Sequence record: NC_048170.1
Direction: 5' to 3' (one strand)
DNA from: Escherichia phage vB_EcoM_Goslar
Length of the DNA: 64,000 nucleotides
The notes under the pieces were generated by a model, which was not told where the DNA came from, did not search any database, and saw only the letters and a list, made by a program, of their open reading frames with translations. Position 1 is the first letter of the stretch; the number at the start of each line of letters is the position of its first letter. The position numbers and the translations under genes are program-made. Shown here piece after piece: positions 1-47,005 of the stretch.

Positions 1-1091
1 TCGTCACCGAATTTAACAGCGTCTTTGAAGCCCTGGGATTTCTTACCGATGTTGCCTTTCAGCGCCAGCAGTTTGTCAGCCAGTGCTTCAACACCGCTAA
101 CCGCAGCAGCCAGCTGATTCAGGGACAGGACGGTAGCTTCAACTTCTTTTGCTTCGCCAGAGCGTTCCCAGGTTACTTTACCATCGTTGGCTTTGAAACC
201 CCAACCTGCCGGACCAGCAACGTCAGCGATCGCCGGAGCGTTCAGTTTATCAGCGTACTCGGTGTGAGACTTAGCAACAACGGTACCAACGAATTTATCA
301 GCACGATCGTCAGCAGCCTTCATTGCTTTCTCGAAGGTGTCGGCGATTTTAGTTGCGCCGGTAACCAGATCGTCGCCACCGATGTAGCCTGAAACGCCGC
401 CACCCAGTTTAACTTTGGTATTTTTAGCAGCGCCTTTACGCTTGCCGATCATTTCTTTCAGTTTAGCGGCACGTGCTTTCAGTTTGGTTGCGCCGTCGAA
501 GATACGATCCATGAACTTCACGAAGGTTTCCCAGGAAGTTTTCAGGAAGTTCTTGATGGTTGCCCACAGTTTCTGCCACCATTTTTGTTCTTCCAGGAAG
601 ATCATGTTGGTCGCATCGTAACGGGAAGCGGAACCACCGAAGCTTTCGAAGGACGGCATGGTTTCCGGCAGTTTGAAACCGATAGTACCACACAGACGTT
701 TCAGATTACGCATGTGTTCCTGAGCGGTTTGTGCAGACATACCACCGTCTTTCAGGTAGCTTTCGGTTGCAACAACGGTTTCCGTCAGTTCATCCATGGC
801 TTCATCCATGGCTTCTGCGGTTTCGTCGTCTTTTGCAATTTCGATAACAACAGCATCAACCTGCTCGATATCACCACGAACTTCGATAGCCAGTTCGGTT
901 TCAGCTGCGGTATCTTCAGCGATTTCAGCACGTTCGGTCAGTTCAGCCACAACGGTTTCATCCGCTGGTGCAGCATCAGCTGCCGGTTCTGCTTCAACGG
1001 TTGCCGCTGCATCCGGATCGATCTCAGCAGCCAGTTGAACCAGCTGTGCGTTAGATGGATTTGCGACAAGACGATCAAAAATAGAAGGCAT
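1..1091 (-). CDS. Partial CDS (N-terminal ~363 aa; 3' end beyond window edge): hypothetical abundant protein with acidic Ala/Glu/Asp/Thr-rich N-terminal region
   Basis: Continuous minus-strand frame from ATG near 1091 to position 1, not in ORF track because no stop in window; AAGGAAA Shine-Dalgarno 8 nt upstream; strongly optimised codon usage (CTG, CGT, GGT, AAA, GAA). Confidence 0.8.
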   Translation of the reverse strand, partial: MPSIFDRLVANPSNAQLVQLAAEIDPDAAATVEAEPAADAAPADETVVAELTERAEIAEDTAAETELAIEVRGDIEQVDAVVIEIAKDDETAEAMDEAMDELTETVVATESYLKDGGMSAQTAQEHMRNLKRLCGTIGFKLPETMPSFESFGGSASRYDATNMIFLEEQKWWQKLWATIKNFLKTSWETFVKFMDRIFDGATKLKARAAKLKEMIGKRKGAAKNTKVKLGGGVSGYIGGDDLVTGATKIADTFEKAMKAADDRADKFVGTVVAKSHTEYADKLNAPAIADVAGPAGWGFKANDGKVTWERSGEAKEVEATVLSLNQLAAAVSGVEALADKLLALKGNIGKKSQGFKDAVKFGD

Positions 1092-29877: not shown

Positions 29878-30447
29878 TCAACGATTCTTCATCACTTTAC
29901 CCAGGCTTTCGATATTATCCCAAAAGCGATTTTTACTTGGTGCATCGCCAACGATGACCGACATCAAATCGCGACGTTCACGACTGATGATGCCTTGTGA
30001 TTTCCAGATCACCATCGTCCAGCAAGCTGCCAGAACGAACAGATGGTTAATGCTCGGTTTGGTTTGTGCGATGAACGCAAGCCATGCCCAGATACCGGTA
30101 TATACTATCGTCACTAAAAAGAGGGAGATTGTTGCAACGACAACAACGAAGTTTTGGACAGCGGGTTGATTCGCGTTATCATGAATAGCGGTAAGATCAG
30201 GAAGGTTACCTTCAACTGAACTCGTTTCATCGATTTCCAATTCTTCGATTTCTTTTCGTGTGTCGGGAGCTAATCCGGCATCATCAAGATGCTTTTTTAA
30301 CCGCTGTATACTTAATCGTTGACCGACAGGAATGTTGATGTTGTCGTAACTATTAAGCGCATCAACCAGGGAGCGTCCATCAACGAGAACCAAGCTCGCA
30401 GTACCCATTGTCTGCGGTTTTATTTTGTAAAGGTCTTTTACTTTCAT
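29878..30447 (-). CDS. Hypothetical membrane protein (189 aa)
   Basis: ORF track; long hydrophobic segments (VVVATISLFLVTIVYTGIWAWLAFIA). Confidence 0.7.
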   Translation of the reverse strand: MKVKDLYKIKPQTMGTASLVLVDGRSLVDALNSYDNINIPVGQRLSIQRLKKHLDDAGLAPDTRKEIEELEIDETSSVEGNLPDLTAIHDNANQPAVQNFVVVVATISLFLVTIVYTGIWAWLAFIAQTKPSINHLFVLAACWTMVIWKSQGIISRERRDLMSVIVGDAPSKNRFWDNIESLGKVMKNR

Positions 30448-30468: not shown

Positions 30469-33081
30469 TTAAGCGTCTGGTGTAAAATCAAAAGGAATGT
30501 CCGTACGAATGATATCATAACGTTTTCCTAATAAATAGAACTCTTCGGGAACCTGGCCGGGAATAATGCTATCGCCGATGAACTGCGGATACGCCCAGAT
30601 GTACTGAGTGAGTCCTTCGAACATATCCAGGTTATTTGCGTGGTTACCCATGATACGTTTCCAGAGTTCGCGTTTATACGGTGTTTTAACATCGAATCCA
30701 TAAAGCGGTGCAAGATCTTCACCAGGAACAAATCCCAGGTAATAATGGATCTGACTAACCGGGAAACCAAGCGTATCTCGCGGAATGGTGATCGCTTGCT
30801 CAGCCTTGGTGACATGCGTTTCAATAATCCAGTCGTAGCACTCCGAATAGAACCGATCGAATTTCTCTGGGTTATACCACGCTTTGGGAAGATTCAGTTT
30901 CTCCGTGAACGCGTTCGACATGATCGTCGGCAAGAACGGAAGAACGCCGGTTTTGATCTGCGTGTATTTCGATTTTACCCGGTTAACCAAATTCCAGCAA
31001 CTGTATCCTAATTGGTCGTTACAAAACTCAACGTAGAGATCGTAGTCACCACCGGATAACGGGTTGTTAATATCACCGATGTCTGCGGCGTATTTGTTGG
31101 GATATCGGTTATTGAAAGCCAGTTTGGTTTGGTAATCGTAGATACACGGTTTGTTGTTCGCTGTATTGATCCACCACCAGGGTTCACCTACTTGTACACA
31201 AATGTCCTGGACATGGGGGTAGATGATATCAGCAAACGCGGTTAACACATCCCCTAACCACGCCATCGCCTGTTGGTTACATGGAGACAGCAACCAGGAC
31301 GGTGGTGTATATCCGGTTGCTGCGATGTTTCCTTCCCAATCCTGCTGCGCCCACTCGAATGGACACGCCGTACTCATCAATTCGTAACTTAAACTGATGG
31401 TGACAGAGAAATGGTGTTTTGCAGCATATGCGGCGAAAGCTTCATGCCACGCGATACAGGGTGGATTTAATACATCCGTGGTGTTCACCAGTAACTTACC
31501 CGCACTTGGCGTCCAGACAGTATCGTAGAAATGCGACATTCCAACATAATGCACTAATTCATCCTGATATCCCGCATAAACCAGGTTTTCAAATACACGC
31601 TCTGGCGTGATGTTGTAATGGTCATCGTAAGCGGTTATCGCACGAAGTTCGTGTGGCGTACAATGATGGCGATTAACCGTCATTTCCTGATACACCCCAT
31701 CGATAGGAAGAATCTCGAGGGTTAAACCGAGGTCGATTGGCGTTTCCAGATAGGTCGTTTCAGTCGCATCTTCCTTATAATGTCGAGAACTCATGCTGAA
31801 CATCAACGACGTTACCGATTCAAGTTCGATAGGTTCGTCAGCATAGAACCCCGCCATTGCGTCATTGAAATCGATCGTCACGATTGCGCTTGTACCGTCT
31901 TCAGAGACGTCGGTCGCATATCGGGTTAATGAGATATACTGACGGCTATCGTCTTTGTGTACGATGGTTAGAACCGGCGGGTTTTCGGTATCTGCAAAGT
32001 TACGCTGATCGCCAGTAAACGTGATCTTCGCTTTAAAGATCAAACCGAATAACGACGTCATGGGATCATACGCAATACAACCGTGATCCAGCGTATCCGT
32101 TGTCCGCCATTCTATCCCGACCAACCCGTTAGCGGTATGGCATCGCATATACGCATTAAGGACCATGTCTTCACTGACAACCGCGAAGTTCTCTGTTGAC
32201 TGACCGTTGATAATCCAATACATCGGTTGCCAGAGGTTACGCGTACCTTTTGCGTAGCGGTAGGTTGGTGCGCCTTTAGGGTTGCCATTATTGAGATGGA
32301 ATACGGCAGTACCTTGATAATGGTCGTTCGTATTAATCGGAACACTGTAAGCATCACCGAGATCCGTACGTTCCACCTTCGTGACTGTTGCGTTTTCAAA
32401 CAACCCACGTAGCGCCGGTAAACCGATATCTTCAGGTGCGTTTTCTCGACGAATCGCATCCGCGATGCGGTGGGCTAAGGCGGGGTAAATGGCCTCACCC
32501 TGCTGTAGGTTTGCAAGACCTACAAAGCGATCGGGGTCGATGCCAGCAATCAATAACTCGACATCACCCTTCGTTCTATCGTCGTTAAGATATTTCAGTC
32601 CGGTAAGGTCAAGATGCTGAATAAGCGACAACAGGTTGTATTTACGGTTTTCAACAGTTAGTACAAGATCGCCTGCCCAAACCAAACTTCCCTCATCCGC
32701 TGTTACTTTAACGGATTGTCGGCCTGTGGTAGACGTTGTTGTCGTTTTATTTAATTGTCCTTGTAGGAAGTCGGTTGCGAGGTCAAAGGCAATGCCGTAA
32801 CGGTCAGCGACCGCTTGCATGATTTCACGTAACTGGGTATCTTCTTCAATGATAATCTTGATAGGTATTCCCAAGAACGCTTTAGCGAGGTCTCGTTTAA
32901 CCAACGAGACGAATACGGATTTGTAGTATCGGCTTCCATCTTTCCCTTTAAAAAGAATGGAGGTTGTTTCGGGTGCCGATAGAACACGTGCAAATTCAAC
33001 ATCGTCGAATGTAAGAGAAAGTCCGTTTTTCTCGTTGACCAATCTTAGTATTTCATTTTGCGCGGTTTCATGTAACTTCAT
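30469..33081 (-). CDS. Putative tail fiber / receptor-binding protein (870 aa) with N-terminal domain shared with 38868..39413 and 43211..44041
   Basis: N-terminal similarity (RDLAKAFLGIPIKIIIE versus RDIAKAFLGIPVKIVLE); Trp/Tyr/Gly-rich C-terminal part; position in the fiber locus. Confidence 0.55.
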   Translation of the reverse strand: MKLHETAQNEILRLVNEKNGLSLTFDDVEFARVLSAPETTSILFKGKDGSRYYKSVFVSLVKRDLAKAFLGIPIKIIIEEDTQLREIMQAVADRYGIAFDLATDFLQGQLNKTTTTSTTGRQSVKVTADEGSLVWAGDLVLTVENRKYNLLSLIQHLDLTGLKYLNDDRTKGDVELLIAGIDPDRFVGLANLQQGEAIYPALAHRIADAIRRENAPEDIGLPALRGLFENATVTKVERTDLGDAYSVPINTNDHYQGTAVFHLNNGNPKGAPTYRYAKGTRNLWQPMYWIINGQSTENFAVVSEDMVLNAYMRCHTANGLVGIEWRTTDTLDHGCIAYDPMTSLFGLIFKAKITFTGDQRNFADTENPPVLTIVHKDDSRQYISLTRYATDVSEDGTSAIVTIDFNDAMAGFYADEPIELESVTSLMFSMSSRHYKEDATETTYLETPIDLGLTLEILPIDGVYQEMTVNRHHCTPHELRAITAYDDHYNITPERVFENLVYAGYQDELVHYVGMSHFYDTVWTPSAGKLLVNTTDVLNPPCIAWHEAFAAYAAKHHFSVTISLSYELMSTACPFEWAQQDWEGNIAATGYTPPSWLLSPCNQQAMAWLGDVLTAFADIIYPHVQDICVQVGEPWWWINTANNKPCIYDYQTKLAFNNRYPNKYAADIGDINNPLSGGDYDLYVEFCNDQLGYSCWNLVNRVKSKYTQIKTGVLPFLPTIMSNAFTEKLNLPKAWYNPEKFDRFYSECYDWIIETHVTKAEQAITIPRDTLGFPVSQIHYYLGFVPGEDLAPLYGFDVKTPYKRELWKRIMGNHANNLDMFEGLTQYIWAYPQFIGDSIIPGQVPEEFYLLGKRYDIIRTDIPFDFTPDA

Positions 33082-33103: not shown

Positions 33104-33745
33104 TTAGATGTACTGCTTACCGCCCACGAAGGAAGTTAACCAGTTACCCGAAACAAGCTGCGAAGCCCAGCCAGGCACTGCCCTACCGTTCTGACTCATG
33201 ATGTTACCACACCAACCAGGGAATCCGGGACGGATGTAATAGAAAGTTAAATTGTAGAGATGGCAATTCCATACCGCAACGTTATGTTTACCAGAAACCG
33301 CTTTAAAGATAAATGCGACAGGTAACGGAGACGATAACAATTCGGTCACAGGGACGGCTGACCAGTTCGCATTCGCGTTCCATGGCTGCCAGGTATGGCT
33401 ACGCGAGTCACCGTTGACGTTACCGTTGCTACCGCGTCCGCCCGCGTTCCACCATAGCGACGGACTCATGTTCTTAAGTGAGGTAAATTGCTGCGGTGGA
33501 ATATTCGGAATGATAACAGGGTTGGTACCTTGTCCGTGTTTCTTTTCTTTTGCGTTCACATAGCCGTTTATCGATTCCAGGTATTTGACACCAGGATAAT
33601 TGTTCTGGACTTGTGTCGCAATATCACGAACGTCGAACGTCCAGCAGATCATGGTGTTGTAGTAAGCGTCGGTGTTATCGTGCCATGAGTTACCATCTTG
33701 TAAACGTGCGCCACTATTCGGTGTTTTATCTGTACTTATAGCCAT
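33104..33745 (-). CDS. Hypothetical protein (213 aa), Trp/Asn/Gly-rich; possible fiber-tip accessory protein
   Basis: ORF track; composition; position between fiber genes. Confidence 0.6.
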   Translation of the reverse strand: MAISTDKTPNSGARLQDGNSWHDNTDAYYNTMICWTFDVRDIATQVQNNYPGVKYLESINGYVNAKEKKHGQGTNPVIIPNIPPQQFTSLKNMSPSLWWNAGGRGSNGNVNGDSRSHTWQPWNANANWSAVPVTELLSSPLPVAFIFKAVSGKHNVAVWNCHLYNLTFYYIRPGFPGWCGNIMSQNGRAVPGWASQLVSGNWLTSFVGGKQYI

Positions 33746-33883
33746 GGTCTTGTCCTATATGTTGGTGGTTGAGGTGGCGGATATCGGATGCGTGCTGGAC
33801 GTGAACCCTATAGTTCGCGCTATCGCCATTTTCTACCTCGTTTCTATTCTCAAAAAGGAAATTTCATACGATGACGCCATAGC

Positions 33884-33913
33884 AGCTCCTCCTTCCCTGA
33901 CGGGTTGGAGGAG
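33884..33913 (-). terminator. Stem-loop (GCTCCTCC / GGAGGAGC) downstream of the lipoprotein gene
   Basis: Inverted repeat followed on the minus strand by a T-rich tract. Confidence 0.5.
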
Positions 33914-33922
33914 CATACTTAA

Positions 33923-34426
33923 TTACTTACTGATAACCTCAACGGAATTGGGATCAGCGATCAACGCACGATCGGTAGAACAATTGAAGAAGACCATGCC
34001 AACACCATCGCCGTTCGAGTTCAGGGTTGAACTTGCGTAAGACAATGTTGGTTTATTCATGCGGTAGAAGCGTTCGCTGGTTGCGGTATTGAACCCCAGA
34101 TCAACGTAGTCTTTCACCGTGGTATACAACTGGGTGGACTCGAAAACGGTTACCGGAGAGTCGACGGTAAACTGACTACCTTCATCCACAACCAGAACTT
34201 TATCGTTCCAGATTTCAGTGGTTGAAAACTTCGGTTTCCAATGTTCGAATTCCTGGGTTGCGCCCCAGCAGGAATACACAGCGAGATTGCTGTTCTTCTC
34301 AACAGGTTTCAACCCCACCAGTTGTGTCAGGTCTTTATCCAGGTTCGGTAAGCCTTCCAGCGTAGCGCACCCACCCAGAGAAAGCACCATCAACATACCA
34401 AGAATAATCGCGCAAAGTTTCTTCAT
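33923..34426 (-). CDS. Putative lipoprotein (167 aa)
   Basis: N-terminal signal peptide with lipobox (MKKLCAIILGMLMVLSLGGC). Confidence 0.7.
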   Translation of the reverse strand: MKKLCAIILGMLMVLSLGGCATLEGLPNLDKDLTQLVGLKPVEKNSNLAVYSCWGATQEFEHWKPKFSTTEIWNDKVLVVDEGSQFTVDSPVTVFESTQLYTTVKDYVDLGFNTATSERFYRMNKPTLSYASSTLNSNGDGVGMVFFNCSTDRALIADPNSVEVISK

Positions 34427-34470
34427 CGTCGGATTTCCTTATGTGTTAACGGAAGTGATTTCCATAGTAA

Positions 34471-34911
34471 TTACTTAGCAGCAGGAAATTCCGGCCAATC
34501 GATATTTGGTGCAGCATCGGTATCGACAGCCGACACCGCGTCAACGTAATCCAAAACGGCGTTAAGTCGGGTCGTTTCTTCCGGAGTCAGTTTTCGCCCA
34601 GCCCGTAATTTTAACTGAATAAGATCGATGGAAGCCAGCGAAGAATCAATCAAAGATTGTTTTATCTGTTCTGCCTCGGCGACAAGTTCTTCGTGTTGCC
34701 GCTCGGGTTCCGGAGGCGCGATAAACTCGCCGTTTGAGTATAACCAACCTATTCCAGGTGACACAGCTGCCGTATCGCTAATGCTAACCAGCTGCTGATT
34801 GTCGAATATATCGAGCTCTGCTTCACCATCGTAAACAATCGTGTTTACTACCACTCCATTTTCAATAACAGCGTATAATGTACTCATTACATAAACTCCT
34901 CGATGATGCAA
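34471..34911 (-). CDS. Tail fiber assembly chaperone (Tfa-like)
   Basis: C-terminal VSAVDTDAAPNIDWPEFP closely matches the lambda Tfa C-terminus (LNRVDTSTAPDIEWPAVP); 25-nt overlap with the tail fiber gene. Confidence 0.8.
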   Translation of the reverse strand: MHHRGVYVMSTLYAVIENGVVVNTIVYDGEAELDIFDNQQLVSISDTAAVSPGIGWLYSNGEFIAPPEPERQHEELVAEAEQIKQSLIDSSLASIDLIQLKLRAGRKLTPEETTRLNAVLDYVDAVSAVDTDAAPNIDWPEFPAAK

Positions 34912-37900
34912 ATCCCATTAGCACCACGCCCACCAGGCTTAGCGGTTCCTGAGTAAGAGTTATCGTAAGCACCACCACCACCCGAACCAGGCGCGAGGCC
35001 GTTATGGGCGGTGCCAACACCAGCGCGACCGCCACCGCCCCAATATGACGCACCCCCACATCCACCGACGGCAATAGTACCGGCTTGTCCATCGCTACCG
35101 TCTCCGCCCGGAATGCGTATATCCCCGGTAGCAGGTGCGCCCCCATAGCCACCGCCAGTGTTTGTGACAGTTGTTTTTCCTGCGCCTTGCCCGCCGGGAG
35201 CAGTTAGCAGGGATGCAAATTTACTATCCCCACCCCCGTTCCCAGACGTCGCCCCAGAGCCACCGGAACCACCAGAACCAATTATAACAGAATAACTAGC
35301 AGCTGTTACCGTTATAACCGAAATTACTGTTCCGCCAGCTCCTCCCCCAGCACCAAAAAACGTTTCGCTGTTGGAATAAGCCTGACAGCCACCGCCGCCA
35401 CCGCCGCCACCGGTTATTGTTACTCTAATCCGTTTTGTTCCTTGTGTTGGAGTGTACGTCCCTGACGATGTGAAAACACGCATGTTCAGTAAACGTCCGA
35501 CATATCCGCTAGAATCGGCTAAACCAAGATCTTTAGCTGCTAACGTGATATTAGCTGTACCATCGAAAGGTTTACCGTTAATCGTGCGCGCAGTTTGCAA
35601 CTTCGTCGCCGTGGCTGCGTTCCCTGATGTATTCTGGTTCCCCGCGACGTTAACACCTGGTAGATTGATGTTCGCACTACCGTCGAAAGACACCCCACCA
35701 ATGGTGCGGGCTGTTTTCAGTTTTGTCGCCGTGGCGGCATTCCCCGTAGTGTCTTGGTTTCCTGCTGCGTTAACACCCGGCAGACTGATATTTGCCGTAC
35801 CATCGAACGCGACACCGCCAATCGTCCTTGCCGTTTGTAGTTTTGTCGCCGTGGCGGCATTACCGGTTGTGCTTTGGTTACCGGTGGTGTTTACCCCAGG
35901 TAGGCTGATATTTGCTGTTCCGTCAAATGAAACGCCGCCAATCGTCCTTGCCGTTTGCAACTTCGTTGCGGATGCCGCGTTCCCCGTGGTGTTTTGGTTA
36001 CCTGTTGCATTCACACCAGGGATACTATCCTTAGATGTATAGATCTGTGCCCATTCCGACCAATTCGAATCGGCTGCATCCCGACGAGAACGAAGATAGG
36101 CTGGCGCATGCGCCCCCGATGTACCAGACCATCCAATAAGGATCTCACCTTCACCTACTGCGGTTGCGCCTTTAAGATGAATAATATTGCCGTACGCTGT
36201 AGGGTATCCGTTATTGTACGCTTCATACATCTGGATACCCGTATTGCTACCCTGGGTCGCATTAGCTAAAGCGGTGACCCGTCCCTTGGAAGCGAGCACG
36301 TTAATGCTAAAGCTAATATCAGTTGTACCGTCAAAGGCGACCCCATTAATCCTCCGTGCCGTTTGGAGTTTCGTGGCAGTAGCCGCATTACCAGAAGTGC
36401 TCTGGTTACCCGCTTTGTTCACACCCGGTAAATCAATGTTGGCAGTCCCATCAAACGACACACCCCCTATGGTTCTCGCCGTCTGGAGTTTTGTTGCTGA
36501 ACCGGCGTTTCCGGAAGTGCTTTGATTGCCCGCGGCGTTGACACCAGGTAGGTTAATGCTAGCAGAACCATCAAAAGAAACTCCACCGATCGTAATGGTC
36601 GTTTGCAACTTCGTGGCTGTCGCAGCGTTACCCGTCGTATTCTGATTACCAGCTGCATTGACGCCAGGTAATGCGATATCAGTTGTACCGTCAAAAGCGA
36701 CACCACCGATTTTACGGGCGGTCTGTAGCTTGGTTGCGCTTCCTGCGTTTCCGCTGGTGTCTTGGTTTCCTGCAGCGTTAACACCCGGTAGACTGATGCT
36801 GACCGAACCATCGAAACTCACACCACCGATCGTAACAGCGGTTTTCAATTTCGTGGCAGTAGCTGCGTTACCGGTTGTATTTTGATTGCCTGTCGCATTA
36901 ACGCCCGGTAATGCAATATCCGCTGTTCCGTCAAAGGCAACGCCACCGATTCTACGTGCAGTTTGTAGCTTGGTCGCTGTAGCGGCATTACCGCTGGTAT
37001 TTTGCGTGCCTGCTTTATTTACACCGGGAAGATCGATGTTAGCAGAACCGTCGAAGCTAACGCCACCTATCGTTCTTGCCGTAGCAAGTTTAGCTGCTGT
37101 AGCAGCGGCGTTACCGACTTTTAACCATTCGCCCCATGGACCATCCTGGCCGTTCCATGATGCCGTTAAACTACGTACGTAAATATTGCCGGTACGTACA
37201 GTGTAACGTTGTGTTCCACCGAATTGCCCGGTTGGGAGCACTTCAATGTAACCTGCGGCGTTTGCTTCAGGGAAATTGTGGGCGACGTCCGCGTTCGTCG
37301 TTATTGGTTTAGACCAAATACCCACAGATGCTTCGACTGGACCGAAGGTATTCAGATTTGCGTCCGTCGCCATAGCACCATTAAATTTCAGGTACGTCTC
37401 TGGCGATAATCCGATCGTTTTAGCAAACGCAACTTTATCTACGATATCACTACCGTTATTCCCTGCCTGCAATGCTGTCTTAGCTGCCTTTATGGTTTCT
37501 GTCAATCCAAGATACAGTAAGACCGCATCAACGCTTCCTTTGCTTAGCAGATTCAGACCTGTTGACGTTACGTTAGTTAGCCCGATTTGGTTCCGTCCAG
37601 TAAAATAAGGGAGTTTATTCGCATCTGTTGTTAGGTTAGACCACGCGGTCAGCAACGCGTTCAACGGTTGTTTACCCGCCAACGCATTGGTTACTGTCGT
37701 TGCGAAATTAGGATCGTTCCCTAAAGCTTGAGCCAGCTCATTAAGCGTATTTAGCGCTTCTGGAGACGAGTCGATCAGCGATGCGATAGCACGCATCACA
37801 AATTCCGTGTTGGCAATCTGTCGACTGCTATCGTTCTCTGCAGCCGTAGGCGCTGCCGGGATACCGGTGAACACAGGGCTATTAAGATCTGCCTTGAGAG

Positions 37901-38861
37901 CGATGAGACGTTTAAGTGCGTCGACATCGACTTTCAGGTTTTCCCATCCGATGAGAGAACCACCACTGGCGTTATGATAACGGTTGTACCAGAAGTCGCC
38001 GTTAACGCCAAAAAAGAATATACCTTTCTCTTCGTATTGTGGGCCAGAACTATTTCGTGATGTTTCGATATATTTGATTTCAATAAGACCGCTAAACACC
38101 ACTCCTGGGATTATATTGTTGTTTCCAGCTGACTGTGATACCTGGTAAATCCCCGGGGTTGCGGCTTTAACCCATGTTAAGAATTCTGTTACTCCAGCGG
38201 CACCGCTAAAATTCTTAACGTCGGTAAGTATCGCCCCATAACCGAACATACCGGGTAGAGCCACTCGTTCGCTGGTACGGTCACGAATATCTGTCGCAAC
38301 AACGGGCAATTGTTTACGAACAGCATTAACCGCTTTAGGCGTGGCCGATTTTGTCTCGTCGTCGCTATCGGTTTCATTACTTAGAATAGTTAAACCGCGT
38401 GTAGCAGTAGTTGCATCAGGAAGAAATGCGTTATCCAACACCTTAAGCTGTATTGCACTCGTATTACTAACAACGACATGCACCTGACAGTTAAGAACGC
38501 TGGTTGCGCCTTCGGCAGGCGTAGGCTTATATCTTTCTGGCGCACTGCAGACGGCAATCAGAACACCTTGGTCATCATACAGACCGATCTCACGTACCCA
38601 GAACCCACCTTGACCAGCGGGAATAATACCCTCAACGATAATCCTGGTTGTGCTATCACCATCCGCATGGATATTAGAAACTTCCCCACGATAAACTTCG
38701 TGAACAAGCGCTGTTTGGCTGGCGGTCGGGGTTGGGATCGAGCCGTTACCATCACCAACGGCAAAGTGTGTGATTTTTAGTTTCTCACCGTCGGGAAGTA
38801 ACGCAGCGGTGATACGTTCTGCTCCTTTATCGGTAACTACCGTTATATATGCTGTACTCAT
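34887..38861 (-). CDS. Tail fiber protein (1324 aa): conserved fiber N-terminal domain, eleven 40-aa repeats, polyglycine-rich C-terminal region
   Basis: N-terminus resembles lambda Stf / P2 gpH-type fibers (RGLTILSNETDSDDETKSATPKAVNAV); repeats of GNAATATKLQTARTIGGVSFDG; Tfa gene immediately downstream. Confidence 0.85.
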   Translation of the reverse strand: MSTAYITVVTDKGAERITAALLPDGEKLKITHFAVGDGNGSIPTPTASQTALVHEVYRGEVSNIHADGDSTTRIIVEGIIPAGQGGFWVREIGLYDDQGVLIAVCSAPERYKPTPAEGATSVLNCQVHVVVSNTSAIQLKVLDNAFLPDATTATRGLTILSNETDSDDETKSATPKAVNAVRKQLPVVATDIRDRTSERVALPGMFGYGAILTDVKNFSGAAGVTEFLTWVKAATPGIYQVSQSAGNNNIIPGVVFSGLIEIKYIETSRNSSGPQYEEKGIFFFGVNGDFWYNRYHNASGGSLIGWENLKVDVDALKRLIALKADLNSPVFTGIPAAPTAAENDSSRQIANTEFVMRAIASLIDSSPEALNTLNELAQALGNDPNFATTVTNALAGKQPLNALLTAWSNLTTDANKLPYFTGRNQIGLTNVTSTGLNLLSKGSVDAVLLYLGLTETIKAAKTALQAGNNGSDIVDKVAFAKTIGLSPETYLKFNGAMATDANLNTFGPVEASVGIWSKPITTNADVAHNFPEANAAGYIEVLPTGQFGGTQRYTVRTGNIYVRSLTASWNGQDGPWGEWLKVGNAAATAAKLATARTIGGVSFDGSANIDLPGVNKAGTQNTSGNAATATKLQTARRIGGVAFDGTADIALPGVNATGNQNTTGNAATATKLKTAVTIGGVSFDGSVSISLPGVNAAGNQDTSGNAGSATKLQTARKIGGVAFDGTTDIALPGVNAAGNQNTTGNAATATKLQTTITIGGVSFDGSASINLPGVNAAGNQSTSGNAGSATKLQTARTIGGVSFDGTANIDLPGVNKAGNQSTSGNAATATKLQTARRINGVAFDGTTDISFSINVLASKGRVTALANATQGSNTGIQMYEAYNNGYPTAYGNIIHLKGATAVGEGEILIGWSGTSGAHAPAYLRSRRDAADSNWSEWAQIYTSKDSIPGVNATGNQNTTGNAASATKLQTARTIGGVSFDGTANISLPGVNTTGNQSTTGNAATATKLQTARTIGGVAFDGTANISLPGVNAAGNQDTTGNAATATKLKTARTIGGVSFDGSANINLPGVNVAGNQNTSGNAATATKLQTARTINGKPFDGTANITLAAKDLGLADSSGYVGRLLNMRVFTSSGTYTPTQGTKRIRVTITGGGGGGGGCQAYSNSETFFGAGGGAGGTVISVITVTAASYSVIIGSGGSGGSGATSGNGGGDSKFASLLTAPGGQGAGKTTVTNTGGGYGGAPATGDIRIPGGDGSDGQAGTIAVGGCGGASYWGGGGRAGVGTAHNGLAPGSGGGGAYDNSYSGTAKPGGRGANGICIIEEFM
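35544..37106 (-). repeat. In-frame tandem coding repeats (120-bp unit, about 6.6 + 4 copies, interrupted at 36024..36314) within the tail fiber gene
   Basis: Periodicity read from the translated protein; explains the spurious antisense ORFs 35452..37182. Confidence 0.85.
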
Positions 38862-46507: not shown

Positions 46508-47005
46508 TTACGTGTGTCGTCGTTTACCAAAGAAAATGTGGCTATCTACCACGGTGATATTGGTAGCATGTTTTCTGAAATGTTTAGGGCGAAGATGTTT
46601 CGCGTTAAAGAATACGGCTCCTCGTGTTGGGTCGGCTTTATGGTAAGCCGCAATGTCAGTATAACGTAATGTTGCGACCTCTCGTGCTATTGCTCTTGCT
46701 CGCTCAAAAGCAGCACGATCGCGTATGACAATACGCCTTTGTTTTGTCCAGGGGAATTGACCTCTTTGCAGTACGACGTCTTTGACGTTCGTAGGGAATC
46801 GGTAGTCCATAGATCGATTATGTATTAAAAACGCCACGGAGTATTGCCCTTTTACAGATTCGCCTCTGGCTTCCATATACACAGCACATGCGACGATCTC
46901 TTTCCGGCAATCGATTCTAGGTCCTGCGTTCACTGATGCTTGACTGAACGGTGTAATAAGCAACATAACAAGCCCTAAAATCAACGTGTGTAAAATACCT
47001 TGCAT
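46508..47005 (-). CDS. Putative secreted cell-wall hydrolase, SleB/CwlJ-like (Hydrolase_2-type domain)
   Basis: Signal-peptide-like N-terminus; CAVYMEARGESVKGQYSVAFLIHNR...QFPW matches the conserved SleB-family core. Confidence 0.55.
   Translation of the reverse strand: MQGILHTLILGLVMLLITPFSQASVNAGPRIDCRKEIVACAVYMEARGESVKGQYSVAFLIHNRSMDYRFPTNVKDVVLQRGQFPWTKQRRIVIRDRAAFERARAIAREVATLRYTDIAAYHKADPTRGAVFFNAKHLRPKHFRKHATNITVVDSHIFFGKRRHT

What the first reader, a model, noticed from the sequence alone, without database searches (positions are those of the whole stretch)
33923..34426. Lipoprotein gene inside the tail-fiber locus: candidate superinfection-exclusion factor
A 167-aa protein with a classical signal peptide and lipobox cysteine (LSLGGC) has its own terminator and sits immediately upstream of the fiber chaperone and tail fiber genes. 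Several phages place a receptor-blocking lipoprotein next to their receptor-binding protein gene, for example T5 Llp.
Basis: inference. Interest (0 to 1): 0.55.

Follow-up and report, generated by a model that had tools for sequence, protein, structure and literature searches.

The report
Late outer-membrane lipoprotein of jumbo phage Goslar
This gene of the giant E. coli phage Goslar encodes a genuine, very abundant, late-made outer-membrane lipoprotein found only in related jumbo phages. It may stop new phages being wasted on infected cells and debris, but this is untested and it does not behave like the classic phage T5 blocker.

Summary
The window is Escherichia phage vB_EcoM_Goslar. ORF 33923-34426 (-) is gp088 (YP_009820773.1).

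**Confirmed**
- The ORF, the signal peptide and the lipobox (LGG|C20) are real.
- Cys20 is invariant in 29 homologs, and residue +2 is never Asp, which predicts outer-membrane sorting.
- A strong 3' hairpin follows the stop codon in all five lineages examined.
- One correction: the gene lies downstream of the fibre and chaperone genes, not upstream.

**The family**
- It is small, with 17 representatives among 1.84 billion proteins.
- It is confined to enterobacterial nucleus-forming jumbo phages.
- It forms a tethered beta-barrel with no informative fold match.

**Published data**
- The gene belongs to the late, nucleus-dependent programme.
- The protein reaches about 740 copies per virion in CsCl-purified Goslar.
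- My reading of the same peptide table finds OmpA at 300 or more copies per virion, plus OmpC, OmpF, EF-Tu and DnaK.
- The SPN3US homolog gp159 is absent from that phage's virion proteome. Membrane carry-over is therefore at least as likely as true virion association.

**Against a T5-Llp-like model**
- Expression is late.
- The mature protein is about 2.5 times larger than Llp.
- It is under strong purifying selection (dN/dS 0.07-0.09) while the neighbouring fibre tip and chaperone are swapped or absent.

**Verdict**
- An o-spanin role is unlikely: no i-spanin partner lies next to the gene in any lineage, and SPN3US has its own spanin-like pair.
- Best guess (0.35): a late envelope-conversion, anti-readsorption lipoprotein acting on a conserved envelope target.

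The parts
33923..34426 (-). gp088 coding sequence (167 aa; Goslar_00088 / YP_009820773.1), a pre-prolipoprotein
   Evidence: ORF listing and sequence. The exact protein is in the collection as Goslar gp088. PHROG 9559, E 3e-21. Mass spectrometry found 20 peptides at 77.84% coverage.
34370..34426 (-). Signal peptide, residues 1-19 (MKKLCAIILGMLMVLSLGG)
   Evidence: Hydrophobic window 4-22, Kyte-Doolittle score 2.2. AF2 models a helix at 2-17. No mass-spectrometry peptide covers the N-terminus; the 130 covered residues fit everything except residues 1-31, FYR and MNK (the fit is my inference).
34367..34378 (-). Lipobox L17-G18-G19-C20; Cys20 is the predicted lipidated N-terminus of the mature protein
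   Evidence: Rule-based scan. Cys20 is invariant and L17/G19 nearly invariant in 29 homologs; residue +2 is never Asp.
34295..34366 (-). Flexible tether, residues 21-44 (about 12-15 residues in SPN3US and Erwinia homologs)
   Evidence: AF2 pLDDT below 50 for residues 19-36. This region is variable in length in the alignment.
33962..34294 (-). Globular all-beta (barrel-like) domain, residues 45-155, with invariant Cys53 and Cys149 and the conserved R119-x-Y121-R122 and G139-x-G141-x-G143 motifs
34436..34440 (-). Shine-Dalgarno AAGGA, 9 nt upstream of the ATG
   Evidence: Read from the sequence.
33881..33919 (-). 3' stem-loop immediately after the stop codon (GCUCCUCC...GGAGGAGC), a terminator or mRNA-stabilising hairpin without a U-tract
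   Evidence: dG -26.9 kcal/mol, z -3.2. The position is conserved in L003, L006, L005, SPN3US and pEa_SNUABM_11, with a canonical U-tract in the last three. The consensus terminator scan did not call it.
34471..34887 (-). gp089 tail-fibre assembly chaperone (Caudo_TAP), the gene immediately upstream in the same orientation
   Evidence: Pfam PF02413, E 3e-20. The start is inferred from the L003 ortholog.
34887..38861 (-). gp090 tail fibre (1324 aa; collar-fibre N-terminus, repeats, Gly-rich C-terminus)
   Evidence: Pfam PF12571, PF03406 and PF21722. Internal 120/240-nt tandem repeats.
33104..33745 (-). gp087, 213 aa, no known family, next gene downstream after a 177-nt gap; about 19 copies per virion by mass spectrometry
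   Evidence: A 37%-identical homolog sits at the same position in L006.
30469..33081 (-). gp086, a DUF7941 filament module plus TIM-barrel (host-recognition 'fibre cloud' protein)
   Evidence: Pfam PF25613, PF23844 and PF23845. Basu et al. 2026.

Best explanation
gp088 is an exported lipoprotein. [quoted passage not shown] Its disulfide-stabilised beta-barrel would hang on a 12-25-residue tether.

It is produced in very large amounts in the late, phage-nucleus-dependent programme. I propose that it converts the envelope of the infected cell, and the membrane debris left after lysis, so that progeny virions are not lost by re-adsorbing or injecting there. Its logic matches T5 Llp (lytic conversion) or F-plasmid TraT.

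It differs from Llp in its proposed target. The target would be a conserved, probably abundant envelope component, not the specific receptor of the neighbouring fibre.

**Shown**
- The protein exists and is abundant.
- It is transcribed late.
- The lipobox is invariant.
- It is under purifying selection.
- It resides in the host-recognition region.

**Inferred**
- Export, lipidation and outer-membrane localisation.
- The disulfide bond.
- The binding partner.
- Any effect on adsorption.
For: - **Lipoprotein signal.** The lipobox is present, and Cys20 is invariant in 29 homologs with no Asp at +2.
- **Oxidising compartment.** Two further invariant cysteines are consistent with a periplasmic location.
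- **Processing.** Mass spectrometry covers essentially the whole mature chain but nothing containing the signal peptide or Cys20.
- **Late and strong expression.** Read density is about 0.8 reads/nt, like the tail tube and about half that of the capsid gene. Reads drop 12- to 60-fold when the nucleus cannot form.
- **Stoichiometry.** Its amount is of the same order as OmpA in the same sample, which fits stoichiometric masking of an abundant target (inference).
- **Location.** It always lies in the host-recognition region: Goslar, L003, L006, L005, SPN3US, Lh1B and pEa_SNUABM_11.
- **Autonomous cassette.** It has its own terminator everywhere and sits alone on the opposite strand in SPN3US and Erwinia phages.
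- **Conservation.** dN/dS is 0.07-0.09, and it is the only gene of SPN3US gp148-170 that still hits the Goslar window by tblastn. This points to a conserved partner.
- **Precedent.** Periplasmic exclusion lipoproteins encoded next to receptor-binding-protein genes are known: Llp (PMC9586334) and Rtp45 (PMC12685063).
Against: - No functional test exists.
- Classical exclusion genes are early, and this one is late.
- It shows no co-variation with the adjacent receptor-binding protein.
- It has no similarity to Llp, Cor, Rtp45 or TraT.
- Virions in the mass-spectrometry sample evidently still carry outer-membrane material. If so, masking is at best incomplete in the K-12 laboratory host.
- The receptor of Goslar is unknown.
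- Roughly 740 copies per virion-equivalent is more than simple membrane carry-over easily explains. This leaves room for direct binding to virions.
Confidence: 0.35

Rival explanations
1. Lysis accessory. gp088 is a late outer-membrane lipoprotein that weakens or helps disrupt the outer membrane at the end of infection. It would be spanin-like or a new outer-membrane-destabilising factor.
For: - Timing is late, as for lysis genes.
- In phiKZ the lysis cassette sits in the same baseplate/DUF7941 region: i-spanin, o-spanin lipoprotein, class IIIb holin, a weak-DUF7941 regulator, and the endolysin (PMC12894885).
- In L005 the lipoprotein directly precedes the homolog of gp085, a protein with holin-IIIb-like topology.
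- In SPN3US it lies beside peptidoglycan-hydrolase-like genes: gp156 (GH108 plus a peptidoglycan-binding domain) and gp158.
- No other lipobox ORF exists in the 64-kb window.
Against: - No i-spanin gene lies upstream of it in any lineage. The upstream neighbours are a fibre chaperone, a 1375-aa gp092-like protein, or nothing on that strand.
- The mature part is a 135-residue folded beta-barrel, not a short Pro-rich peptide, and it has no C-terminal transmembrane segment.
- It has no similarity to phiKZ gp141.1.
- The complete SPN3US genome has its own adjacent pair: gp204 (transmembrane segment) and gp205 (lipobox). The gp205 family co-occurs with the gp159 family in Asesino and Stratton.
- Its abundance far exceeds what spanins need.
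- gp085 homologs occur in chimalliviruses that lack this family.
Confidence: 0.15
2. Genuine virion-associated protein. After lysis, or at the envelope, gp088 binds the fibres or the DUF7941 filament cloud and travels with the particle. It would then aid the next adsorption or membrane step.
For: - It is the fourth most abundant unmodelled protein in PEG/CsCl-purified Goslar, at about 737 copies per virion (range 491-1158).
- It is embedded among genes for virion host-recognition proteins and co-regulated with them.
- The gp088-to-capsid protein ratio in mass spectrometry (about 0.7) resembles the mRNA density ratio (about 0.5). Most of what is made would then co-purify (rough inference).
Against: - An exported lipoprotein cannot be assembled into particles in the cytoplasm.
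- It is not in any cryoEM density, and the authors did not test it by GFP fusion.
- The sample is demonstrably contaminated with outer-membrane and cytoplasmic host proteins and with phage nucleus and PhuZ proteins.
- The SPN3US homolog gp159 is absent from the published virion proteome, while its neighbour gp160 is highly abundant there.
Confidence: 0.12
3. Periplasmic inhibitor of a peptidoglycan hydrolase. gp088 would be MliC/PliC-like in architecture and T4 Spackle-like in purpose. It would protect the infected cell from lysis-from-without or restrain the phage's own secreted hydrolase.
For: - MliC is likewise an outer-membrane-anchored barrel (from my own knowledge).
- SPN3US gp159 is flanked by peptidoglycan-hydrolase-like genes.
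- Goslar encodes a Hydrolase_2 protein with an N-terminal signal or SAR-like segment at 46508-47005.
Against: - Foldseek finds no PDB hit at E <= 1e-3.
- No Pfam MliC or LprI signal appears in any of 29 members, even at E <= 1.
- Late timing fits protection from superinfection poorly.
Confidence: 0.08

Closest known systems
T5 Llp (also the T1/phi80 Cor and Rtp Rtp45 superinfection-exclusion lipoproteins)
   Same: [quoted passage not shown]
- The gene lies next to, and in Goslar downstream of, a receptor-binding-protein gene, as its own small cassette.
- It has a conserved Cys pair (Llp has a Cys11-Cys58 disulfide).
- The plausible benefit is the same: avoiding loss of progeny on infected cells and debris (PMC9586334, PMC12685063).
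   Different: - The mature protein is about 16 kDa, a tethered beta-barrel, against about 6 kDa and compact.
- It is late rather than early.
- There is no sequence or fold similarity.
- It is conserved while the adjacent receptor-binding protein is swapped or absent.
- Its target and any exclusion activity are unknown.
Two-component spanin o-subunit (lambda Rz1; phiKZ gp141.1)
   Same: - A late outer-membrane lipoprotein of a phage of Gram-negative hosts.
- In phiKZ the o-spanin lies in the same baseplate/DUF7941 genome region, just upstream of the holin.
   Different: - There is no adjacent or overlapping i-spanin gene.
- It is globular, not short and Pro-rich.
- It has no similarity to gp141.1.
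- SPN3US has a separate spanin-like pair, gp204/gp205.
F-plasmid TraT surface-exclusion lipoprotein
   Same: An abundant outer-membrane lipoprotein, encoded by a mobile element, that blocks re-entry of its own kind by acting on an abundant outer-membrane protein (OmpA). This is from my own knowledge and was not tested here.
   Different: - There is no homology; no Pfam TraT hit appears.
- TraT is surface-exposed and plasmid-borne.
- The topology of gp088 has not been tested.
T4 Spackle (Sp) / MliC-PliC lysozyme inhibitors
   Same: An exported small protein of a virulent phage, or an outer-membrane-anchored barrel, acting in the periplasm. There is a weak barrel-fold resemblance to the PliC family.
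   Different: There are no family motifs or Pfam hits. Spackle is early and helical (from my own knowledge). No inhibitory activity is known for gp088.
PHROG 9559 / UniProt 'Lipoprotein' entries of Erwinia and Salmonella jumbo phages (SPN3US gp159, Wellington gp172, Asesino gp174)
   Same: These are true homologs at 27-35% identity. They share the lipobox, the three invariant cysteines, and the RYYR and GxGxG motifs.
   Different: - None has been characterised.
- In these phages the gene stands alone on the opposite strand between DUF7941, chaperone-like and peptidoglycan-hydrolase-like genes, not behind a fibre.

Membership tests
Bacterial-type (signal peptidase II) lipoprotein | A positive n-region, a hydrophobic h-region, and a lipobox [LVI][ASTVIG][GAS]C with the Cys at position 15-35 | tested here: met
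   MKK / LCAIILGMLMVLS / LGG-C20. It is the only real-gene hit in the window. The scan recovers the phiKZ o-spanin as a control.
Bacterial-type (signal peptidase II) lipoprotein | The lipobox Cys is conserved across homologs | tested here: met
   Cys20 is invariant in 29 sequences down to 24% identity.
Bacterial-type (signal peptidase II) lipoprotein | Outer-membrane sorting: no Asp at +2 | tested here: met
   Residue +2 is A, K, S, V, T or Q in all 29 sequences.
Bacterial-type (signal peptidase II) lipoprotein | Actual acylation and signal cleavage | not testable with these tools
   Only indirect evidence exists. No peptide covering residues 1-31 appears in the held part of the published table, despite 78% coverage.
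Llp/Cor/Rtp45-type superinfection-exclusion lipoproteins | Sequence or fold relatedness to Llp, Cor or Rtp45 | tested here: not met
Llp/Cor/Rtp45-type superinfection-exclusion lipoproteins | A small (about 6-7 kDa) compact mature protein | tested here: not met
   The mature protein has 148 residues, with a 12-25-residue tether plus a barrel.
Llp/Cor/Rtp45-type superinfection-exclusion lipoproteins | The gene is linked to the receptor-binding-protein gene | tested here: inconclusive
   It lies behind the fibre and chaperone in Goslar, L003 and L006. The fibre is absent in L005. In SPN3US the nearest adhesin-like gene (gp155, GP38 domain) is four genes away.
Llp/Cor/Rtp45-type superinfection-exclusion lipoproteins | Expressed early after infection | tested here: not met
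   Published RNA-seq shows dependence on the phage nucleus, log2FC -3.6 to -6.0, like the structural genes.
Llp/Cor/Rtp45-type superinfection-exclusion lipoproteins | Blocks adsorption by inactivating the receptor | not testable with these tools
   No experiment was found. The 2026 jumbo-phage review never mentions superinfection or lipoprotein.
o-spanin (two-component spanin) | The gene is embedded in, overlaps, or lies immediately downstream of an i-spanin gene | tested here: not met
   The upstream neighbours are a Caudo_TAP chaperone, a DUF4376 chaperone, a gp092-like protein, or none on that strand.
o-spanin (two-component spanin) | A short, Pro-rich, largely unstructured periplasmic part | tested here: not met
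   Nine predicted strands with pLDDT 82-94. No similarity to phiKZ gp141.1.
u-spanin (T1 gp11 type) | An N-terminal lipobox plus a C-terminal transmembrane segment | tested here: not met
   The only hydrophobic segment is the signal peptide.
Virion structural protein | Reproducibly present in purified particles and located in the structure | tested here: inconclusive
   It is abundant in Goslar mass spectrometry. It is absent from the cryoEM model. The sample contains OmpA at 300 or more copies per virion and cytoplasmic proteins. The SPN3US homolog is not in that virion proteome.
MliC/PliC lysozyme inhibitors | A family profile match | tested here: not met

The most novel reading that the evidence does not exclude
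gp088 is a lipid-anchored protein that truly leaves the cell with the particle. Lipoprotein-bearing outer-membrane patches, or the lipoprotein itself, would be held by the fibre or the DUF7941 filament cloud. The protein would then work at the next infection, for example in membrane contact or in forming the lipid-bounded early infection vesicle that is special to nucleus-forming phages. This would be the first exported lipoprotein used as a functional virion accessory by a tailed phage.
Probability: 0.06. Interest if true: 0.85.

Novelty: new variant of a known kind. Interest (0 to 1): 0.45.

Why it matters
**No known exclusion or envelope-conversion system in these phages.** The 2026 jumbo-phage review I checked never mentions superinfection or lipoprotein. 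This small family is conserved across the Goslar, SPN3US and Erwinia jumbo phages and is the obvious candidate.

**Interpretation of the virion proteome.** One of the ten most abundant 'virion-associated proteins of unknown function' in the 2026 Goslar structure paper carries an invariant lipoprotein export signal. The same sample holds comparable amounts of OmpA. The protein is therefore probably membrane-borne rather than packaged.

**Biological consequences if it masks a conserved envelope component.**
- It would be a second architectural class of phage exclusion lipoprotein.
- It would point to the still unknown terminal receptor or entry factor of these phages.
- It would be relevant to phage-therapy cocktails built from such phages.

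Tried and rejected
- **Megablast searches.** Searching the locus against the phage and complete-E. coli collections found nothing. Goslar itself is evidently not in the phage collection. The source was identified through the exact protein instead.
- **Repeated 10-mer.** The exact 10-mer TAAGTAATTA overlaps the stop codons of gp089 and gp088. It is not enriched (4 matches at one mismatch or fewer, against 4.3 expected), and an extended motif did not generalise. I dropped it.
- **DUF2846.** One Erwinia record annotates its homolog as DUF2846. No Pfam support appeared in 29 members, so I rejected the annotation.
- **gp087 and SPN3US gp157.** Both are 213 aa, so I tested whether they are homologs. 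They show no similarity.
- **gp085 and the phiKZ holin gp142.** BLAST finds no similarity. Only the topology is alike, so this is recorded as an aside.
- **Spanin hypothesis.** I scanned the window, seven related loci and the reassembled SPN3US genome. The hypothesis is disfavoured.
- **Goslar homolog of SPN3US gp205.** The search found none. Its sensitivity is limited, so Goslar's own spanins remain unidentified.
Full report
**Source and observation**

The 167-aa ORF at 33923-34426 (-) is present as described. Its exact protein sequence is Goslar_00088 / YP_009820773.1 of Escherichia phage vB_EcoM_Goslar, a 237-kb nucleus-forming jumbo phage. UniProt already auto-labels it 'Lipoprotein'.

The N-terminus is a textbook signal-peptidase-II signal: MKK, then a 14-residue hydrophobic core, then L-G-G-C20, with Ala at +2. 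A rule-based scan of all ORFs in the window finds no other real gene with such a signal. The same scan recovers the known phiKZ o-spanin.

On the - strand the order is fibre gp090, chaperone gp089, lipoprotein gp088, hairpin, then gp087 and gp086. The gene is therefore the last of the fibre unit, not upstream of it.

The 'own terminator' is a strong stem-loop at 33881-33919 (dG -26.9 kcal/mol, z -3.2) without a U-tract. The consensus scan missed it. A hairpin directly after the stop codon is present in all five lineages I examined. It has a canonical U-tract in L005, SPN3US and Erwinia pEa_SNUABM_11.

**The family**

- There is no Pfam family. PHROG 9559 (function unknown) matches at E 3e-21.
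- tblastn finds 27-35%-identical homologs only in Erwinia and Salmonella/Escherichia jumbo phages, including Wellingtonvirus, Machinavirus-like phages and Seoulvirus (SPN3US).
- A profile search of 1.84 billion cluster representatives finds 17 proteins. The word-indexed search finds 36 clusters, essentially all on contigs of 225-250 kb.
- In an alignment of 29 members, Cys20 and two further cysteines (Cys53, Cys149) are invariant. The lipobox is L-x-[GS]-C throughout and residue +2 is never Asp.
- AlphaFold2 (mean pLDDT 77) gives a signal helix, a disordered tether (residues 19-36) and a nine-stranded beta domain at pLDDT 82-94.
- A profile search of PDB sequences is empty.

**Published experiments that bear on it**

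*Virion mass spectrometry.* Basu et al. (bioRxiv 10.64898/2026.04.21.720040) ran label-free mass spectrometry on PEG/CsCl-purified Goslar. They list gp88 among ten unmodelled proteins above 200 copies per virion with no predicted function. Table S4 gives 20 peptides, 77.84% coverage and about 737 copies per virion (range 491-1158).

The 130 covered residues equal the whole chain minus residues 1-31, FYR and MNK. No peptide containing EGLPNLDK occurs in the held part of the peptide table. This is what a cleaved, N-terminally acylated protein would give. The fit is my inference.

However, the authors themselves note that chimallin and PhuZ co-purify. The peptide sheet also contains host proteins.

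| Protein in the same sample | Value |
|---|---|
| OmpA, summed peptide area (peptides starting A-E only) | >= 1.2e6 |
| gp088, total peptide area | 1.45e6 |
| OmpA, converted with the paper's calibration | >= about 300 copies per virion-equivalent |
| OmpC, peptide rows in the held part | 29 |
| OmpF, peptide rows in the held part | 17 |
| Capsid protein, peptide rows in the held part | about 31 |

EF-Tu, DnaK, GroEL, Lpp and Pal are also present. Outer-membrane material therefore travels with these particles. A lipoprotein in that material needs no place in the virion.

*SPN3US virion proteome.* The SPN3US homolog is gp159, at 32% identity. It does not appear in the main or supplementary virion-protein tables of Ali et al. 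2017 (PMC5694885). Its neighbour gp160 is one of the most abundant virion proteins there.

*Transcription timing.* RNA-seq from the early-infection-vesicle study (10.1101/2023.09.20.558163, Supplementary Table 2) gives gp088 reads of 358/426/425 at 30 minutes in control cells. The ChmA knock-down, which expresses only the early programme, gives 6/11/3. The capsid, sheath, fibre and DUF7941 genes behave the same way.

Read density is about 0.8 reads/nt. That is similar to the tail tube, about half that of the capsid gene, and about twice that of its neighbours. gp088 is therefore a strongly expressed late gene.

**Comparative context**

| Locus | Lipoprotein identity to Goslar | Neighbouring genes |
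|---|---|---|
| L003 | 98% | Neighbours near-identical |
| L006 | 87% | Fibre shares only its N-terminal anchor; chaperone is DUF4376 instead of Caudo_TAP; gp087-like protein only 37% identical |
| L005 (40-58% identical overall) | 49% | Order is gp093-like, gp092-like, lipoprotein, gp085-like, gp084-like; gp091, the fibre, the chaperone, gp087 and gp086 are all absent |

dN/dS for the lipoprotein is 0.07-0.09, against 0.45 for the chaperone and 0.62 for gp091. Of SPN3US gp148-170, only gp159 still hits the Goslar window by tblastn.

In SPN3US, Lh1B and pEa_SNUABM_11 the gene stands alone on the opposite strand. Its neighbours are:
- DUF7941 proteins, one of which has a GP38 adhesin domain;
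- a DUF4376 chaperone-like gene;
- a GH108 endolysin-like gene;
- an M15-like gene.

The gene is thus a conserved resident of the host-recognition region, around which fibre cassettes come and go. It is not a partner of one receptor-binding protein.

**The spanin rival**

phiKZ has a lysis cassette in the equivalent genome region. It comprises the i-spanin gp141, the o-spanin gp141.1, the class IIIb holin gp142, gp143, and the endolysin gp144 (PMC12894885).

gp088 fails the defining features of a spanin:
- No i-spanin gene lies upstream in any lineage.
- It is folded, not short and Pro-rich, and has no C-terminal transmembrane segment.
- It has no similarity to gp141.1.

I reassembled the full SPN3US genome from six loci and scanned it. 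Besides gp159 it has an adjacent pair: gp204, with an N-terminal transmembrane segment, and gp205, with lipobox LLTGC. This has the canonical separated-spanin layout. gp205 homologs co-occur with the gp159 family in Asesino and Stratton.

Goslar's own spanins remain unidentified, because only 64 kb of the genome is available.

**Interpretation**

*Secure.* gp088 is an exported, outer-membrane-type lipoprotein. It is late, abundant and conserved under purifying selection, it is specific to one clade of enterobacterial chimalliviruses, and it is encoded in the host-recognition region.

*Most likely function (0.35).* Late conversion of the envelope and post-lysis debris, so that progeny are not wasted. 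This follows the logic of Llp and TraT. The proposed target is a conserved and probably abundant envelope component. That would explain both the conservation and the need for OmpA-like amounts.

*Rivals.*
- Lysis accessory: 0.15.
- True virion accessory: 0.12.
- Peptidoglycan-hydrolase inhibitor: 0.08.
- The remainder is unassigned.

It does not fit in timing, size, homology, or coupling to the receptor-binding protein.

**Novelty**

The kind of molecule, a phage outer-membrane lipoprotein, is known. This family is uncharacterised and architecturally distinct. The 2026 jumbo-phage review I checked never mentions superinfection or lipoprotein.

The practical by-product is a caution. One of the 'abundant virion-associated proteins' of Goslar carries an invariant lipoprotein export signal and co-purifies with comparable amounts of OmpA.

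Noticed in passing
window 29878-30447 (-), gp085; L005 10644-11210: This 189-aa protein has a soluble N-terminal domain of about 97 residues followed by one or two transmembrane segments. That is the topology of the phiKZ 'class IIIb' holin gp142, though BLAST shows no similarity. It is conserved in other chimalliviruses (Serratia, Klebsiella, Erwinia PhiEaH1). In L005 it lies directly downstream of the lipoprotein. It is a candidate Goslar holin.
   Followed up: partly
window 46508-47005 (-): This Hydrolase_2 (SleB-type cell-wall hydrolase) protein has an N-terminal hydrophobic segment (MQGILHTLILGLVMLLITPFSQASV). It could be a secreted or signal-anchor-release endolysin. It is conserved in L005 and L006.
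   Followed up: partly
SPN3US JN641803 180017-180976 (L013): gp204 has an N-terminal transmembrane segment and a Pro-rich C-terminus. gp205 (lipobox LLTGC) follows immediately. Together they form an unannotated separated-spanin-like pair. gp198 is annotated as an endolysin with a signal-like N-terminus, and gp200 has two transmembrane segments and is holin-like.
   Followed up: partly
Basu et al. 2026 Table S4 (Goslar virion mass spectrometry): The 'purified virion' sample holds large amounts of host OmpA, OmpC and OmpF, and also EF-Tu, DnaK and GroEL. Copy numbers of unmodelled proteins in that table cannot be read as virion stoichiometry. gp087 (about 19 copies) and chaperone gp089 (about 52 copies) are also listed there.
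   Followed up: partly
window 34427-34470; L003, L005, L004, L002, L001 upstream of the lipoprotein genes: A TATG motif in an AT-rich context lies 37-59 nt upstream of the start codon in six of seven loci (TACTATGG, TTGTATGG, TAATATGAC, TAGTATGAC). It may be the late promoter of the non-virion RNA polymerase. The motif is too short to test statistically here.
   Followed up: partly
window 33920-33929 and 34468-34477 (-): The exact 10-mer TAAGTAATTA overlaps the stop codons of both gp088 and gp089. It is not enriched in the window, so it may be chance or a module-junction scar.
   Followed up: yes
window 35593-36974 (fibre gene gp090): The fibre gene contains 120/240-nt tandem repeats encoding the repeated GNQxTxGNAxxATKLQTARxIGGVxFDG units. 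The L003 ortholog is 152 aa shorter, so repeat number varies between close relatives.
   Followed up: partly
protein cluster of gp088: The 258-member cluster at 90% identity includes contigs of about 236-248 kb from E. coli, Salmonella and Shigella isolate assemblies. Goslar-like phages are therefore common passengers in clinical or surveillance isolate sequencing. This could reflect a carrier state or contamination. None is in the complete-genome E. coli collection.
   Followed up: no
phiKZ NC_004629 145693-146226 (L008 9694-10227), gp143: One paper describes this protein as a cytoplasmic holin regulator (PMC12894885). Another describes it as a DUF7941 baseplate-filament protein (Basu 2026). 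Pfam gives only a sub-threshold DUF7941 hit (E 0.0017). The two roles have not been reconciled.
   Followed up: partly
SPN3US JN641803 133169-135346 (gp155): This DUF7941 protein carries a T-even GP38 adhesin domain (PF05268, E 7e-18). It is a likely outer-membrane-protein-binding receptor-binding protein, four genes from the lipoprotein.
   Followed up: no
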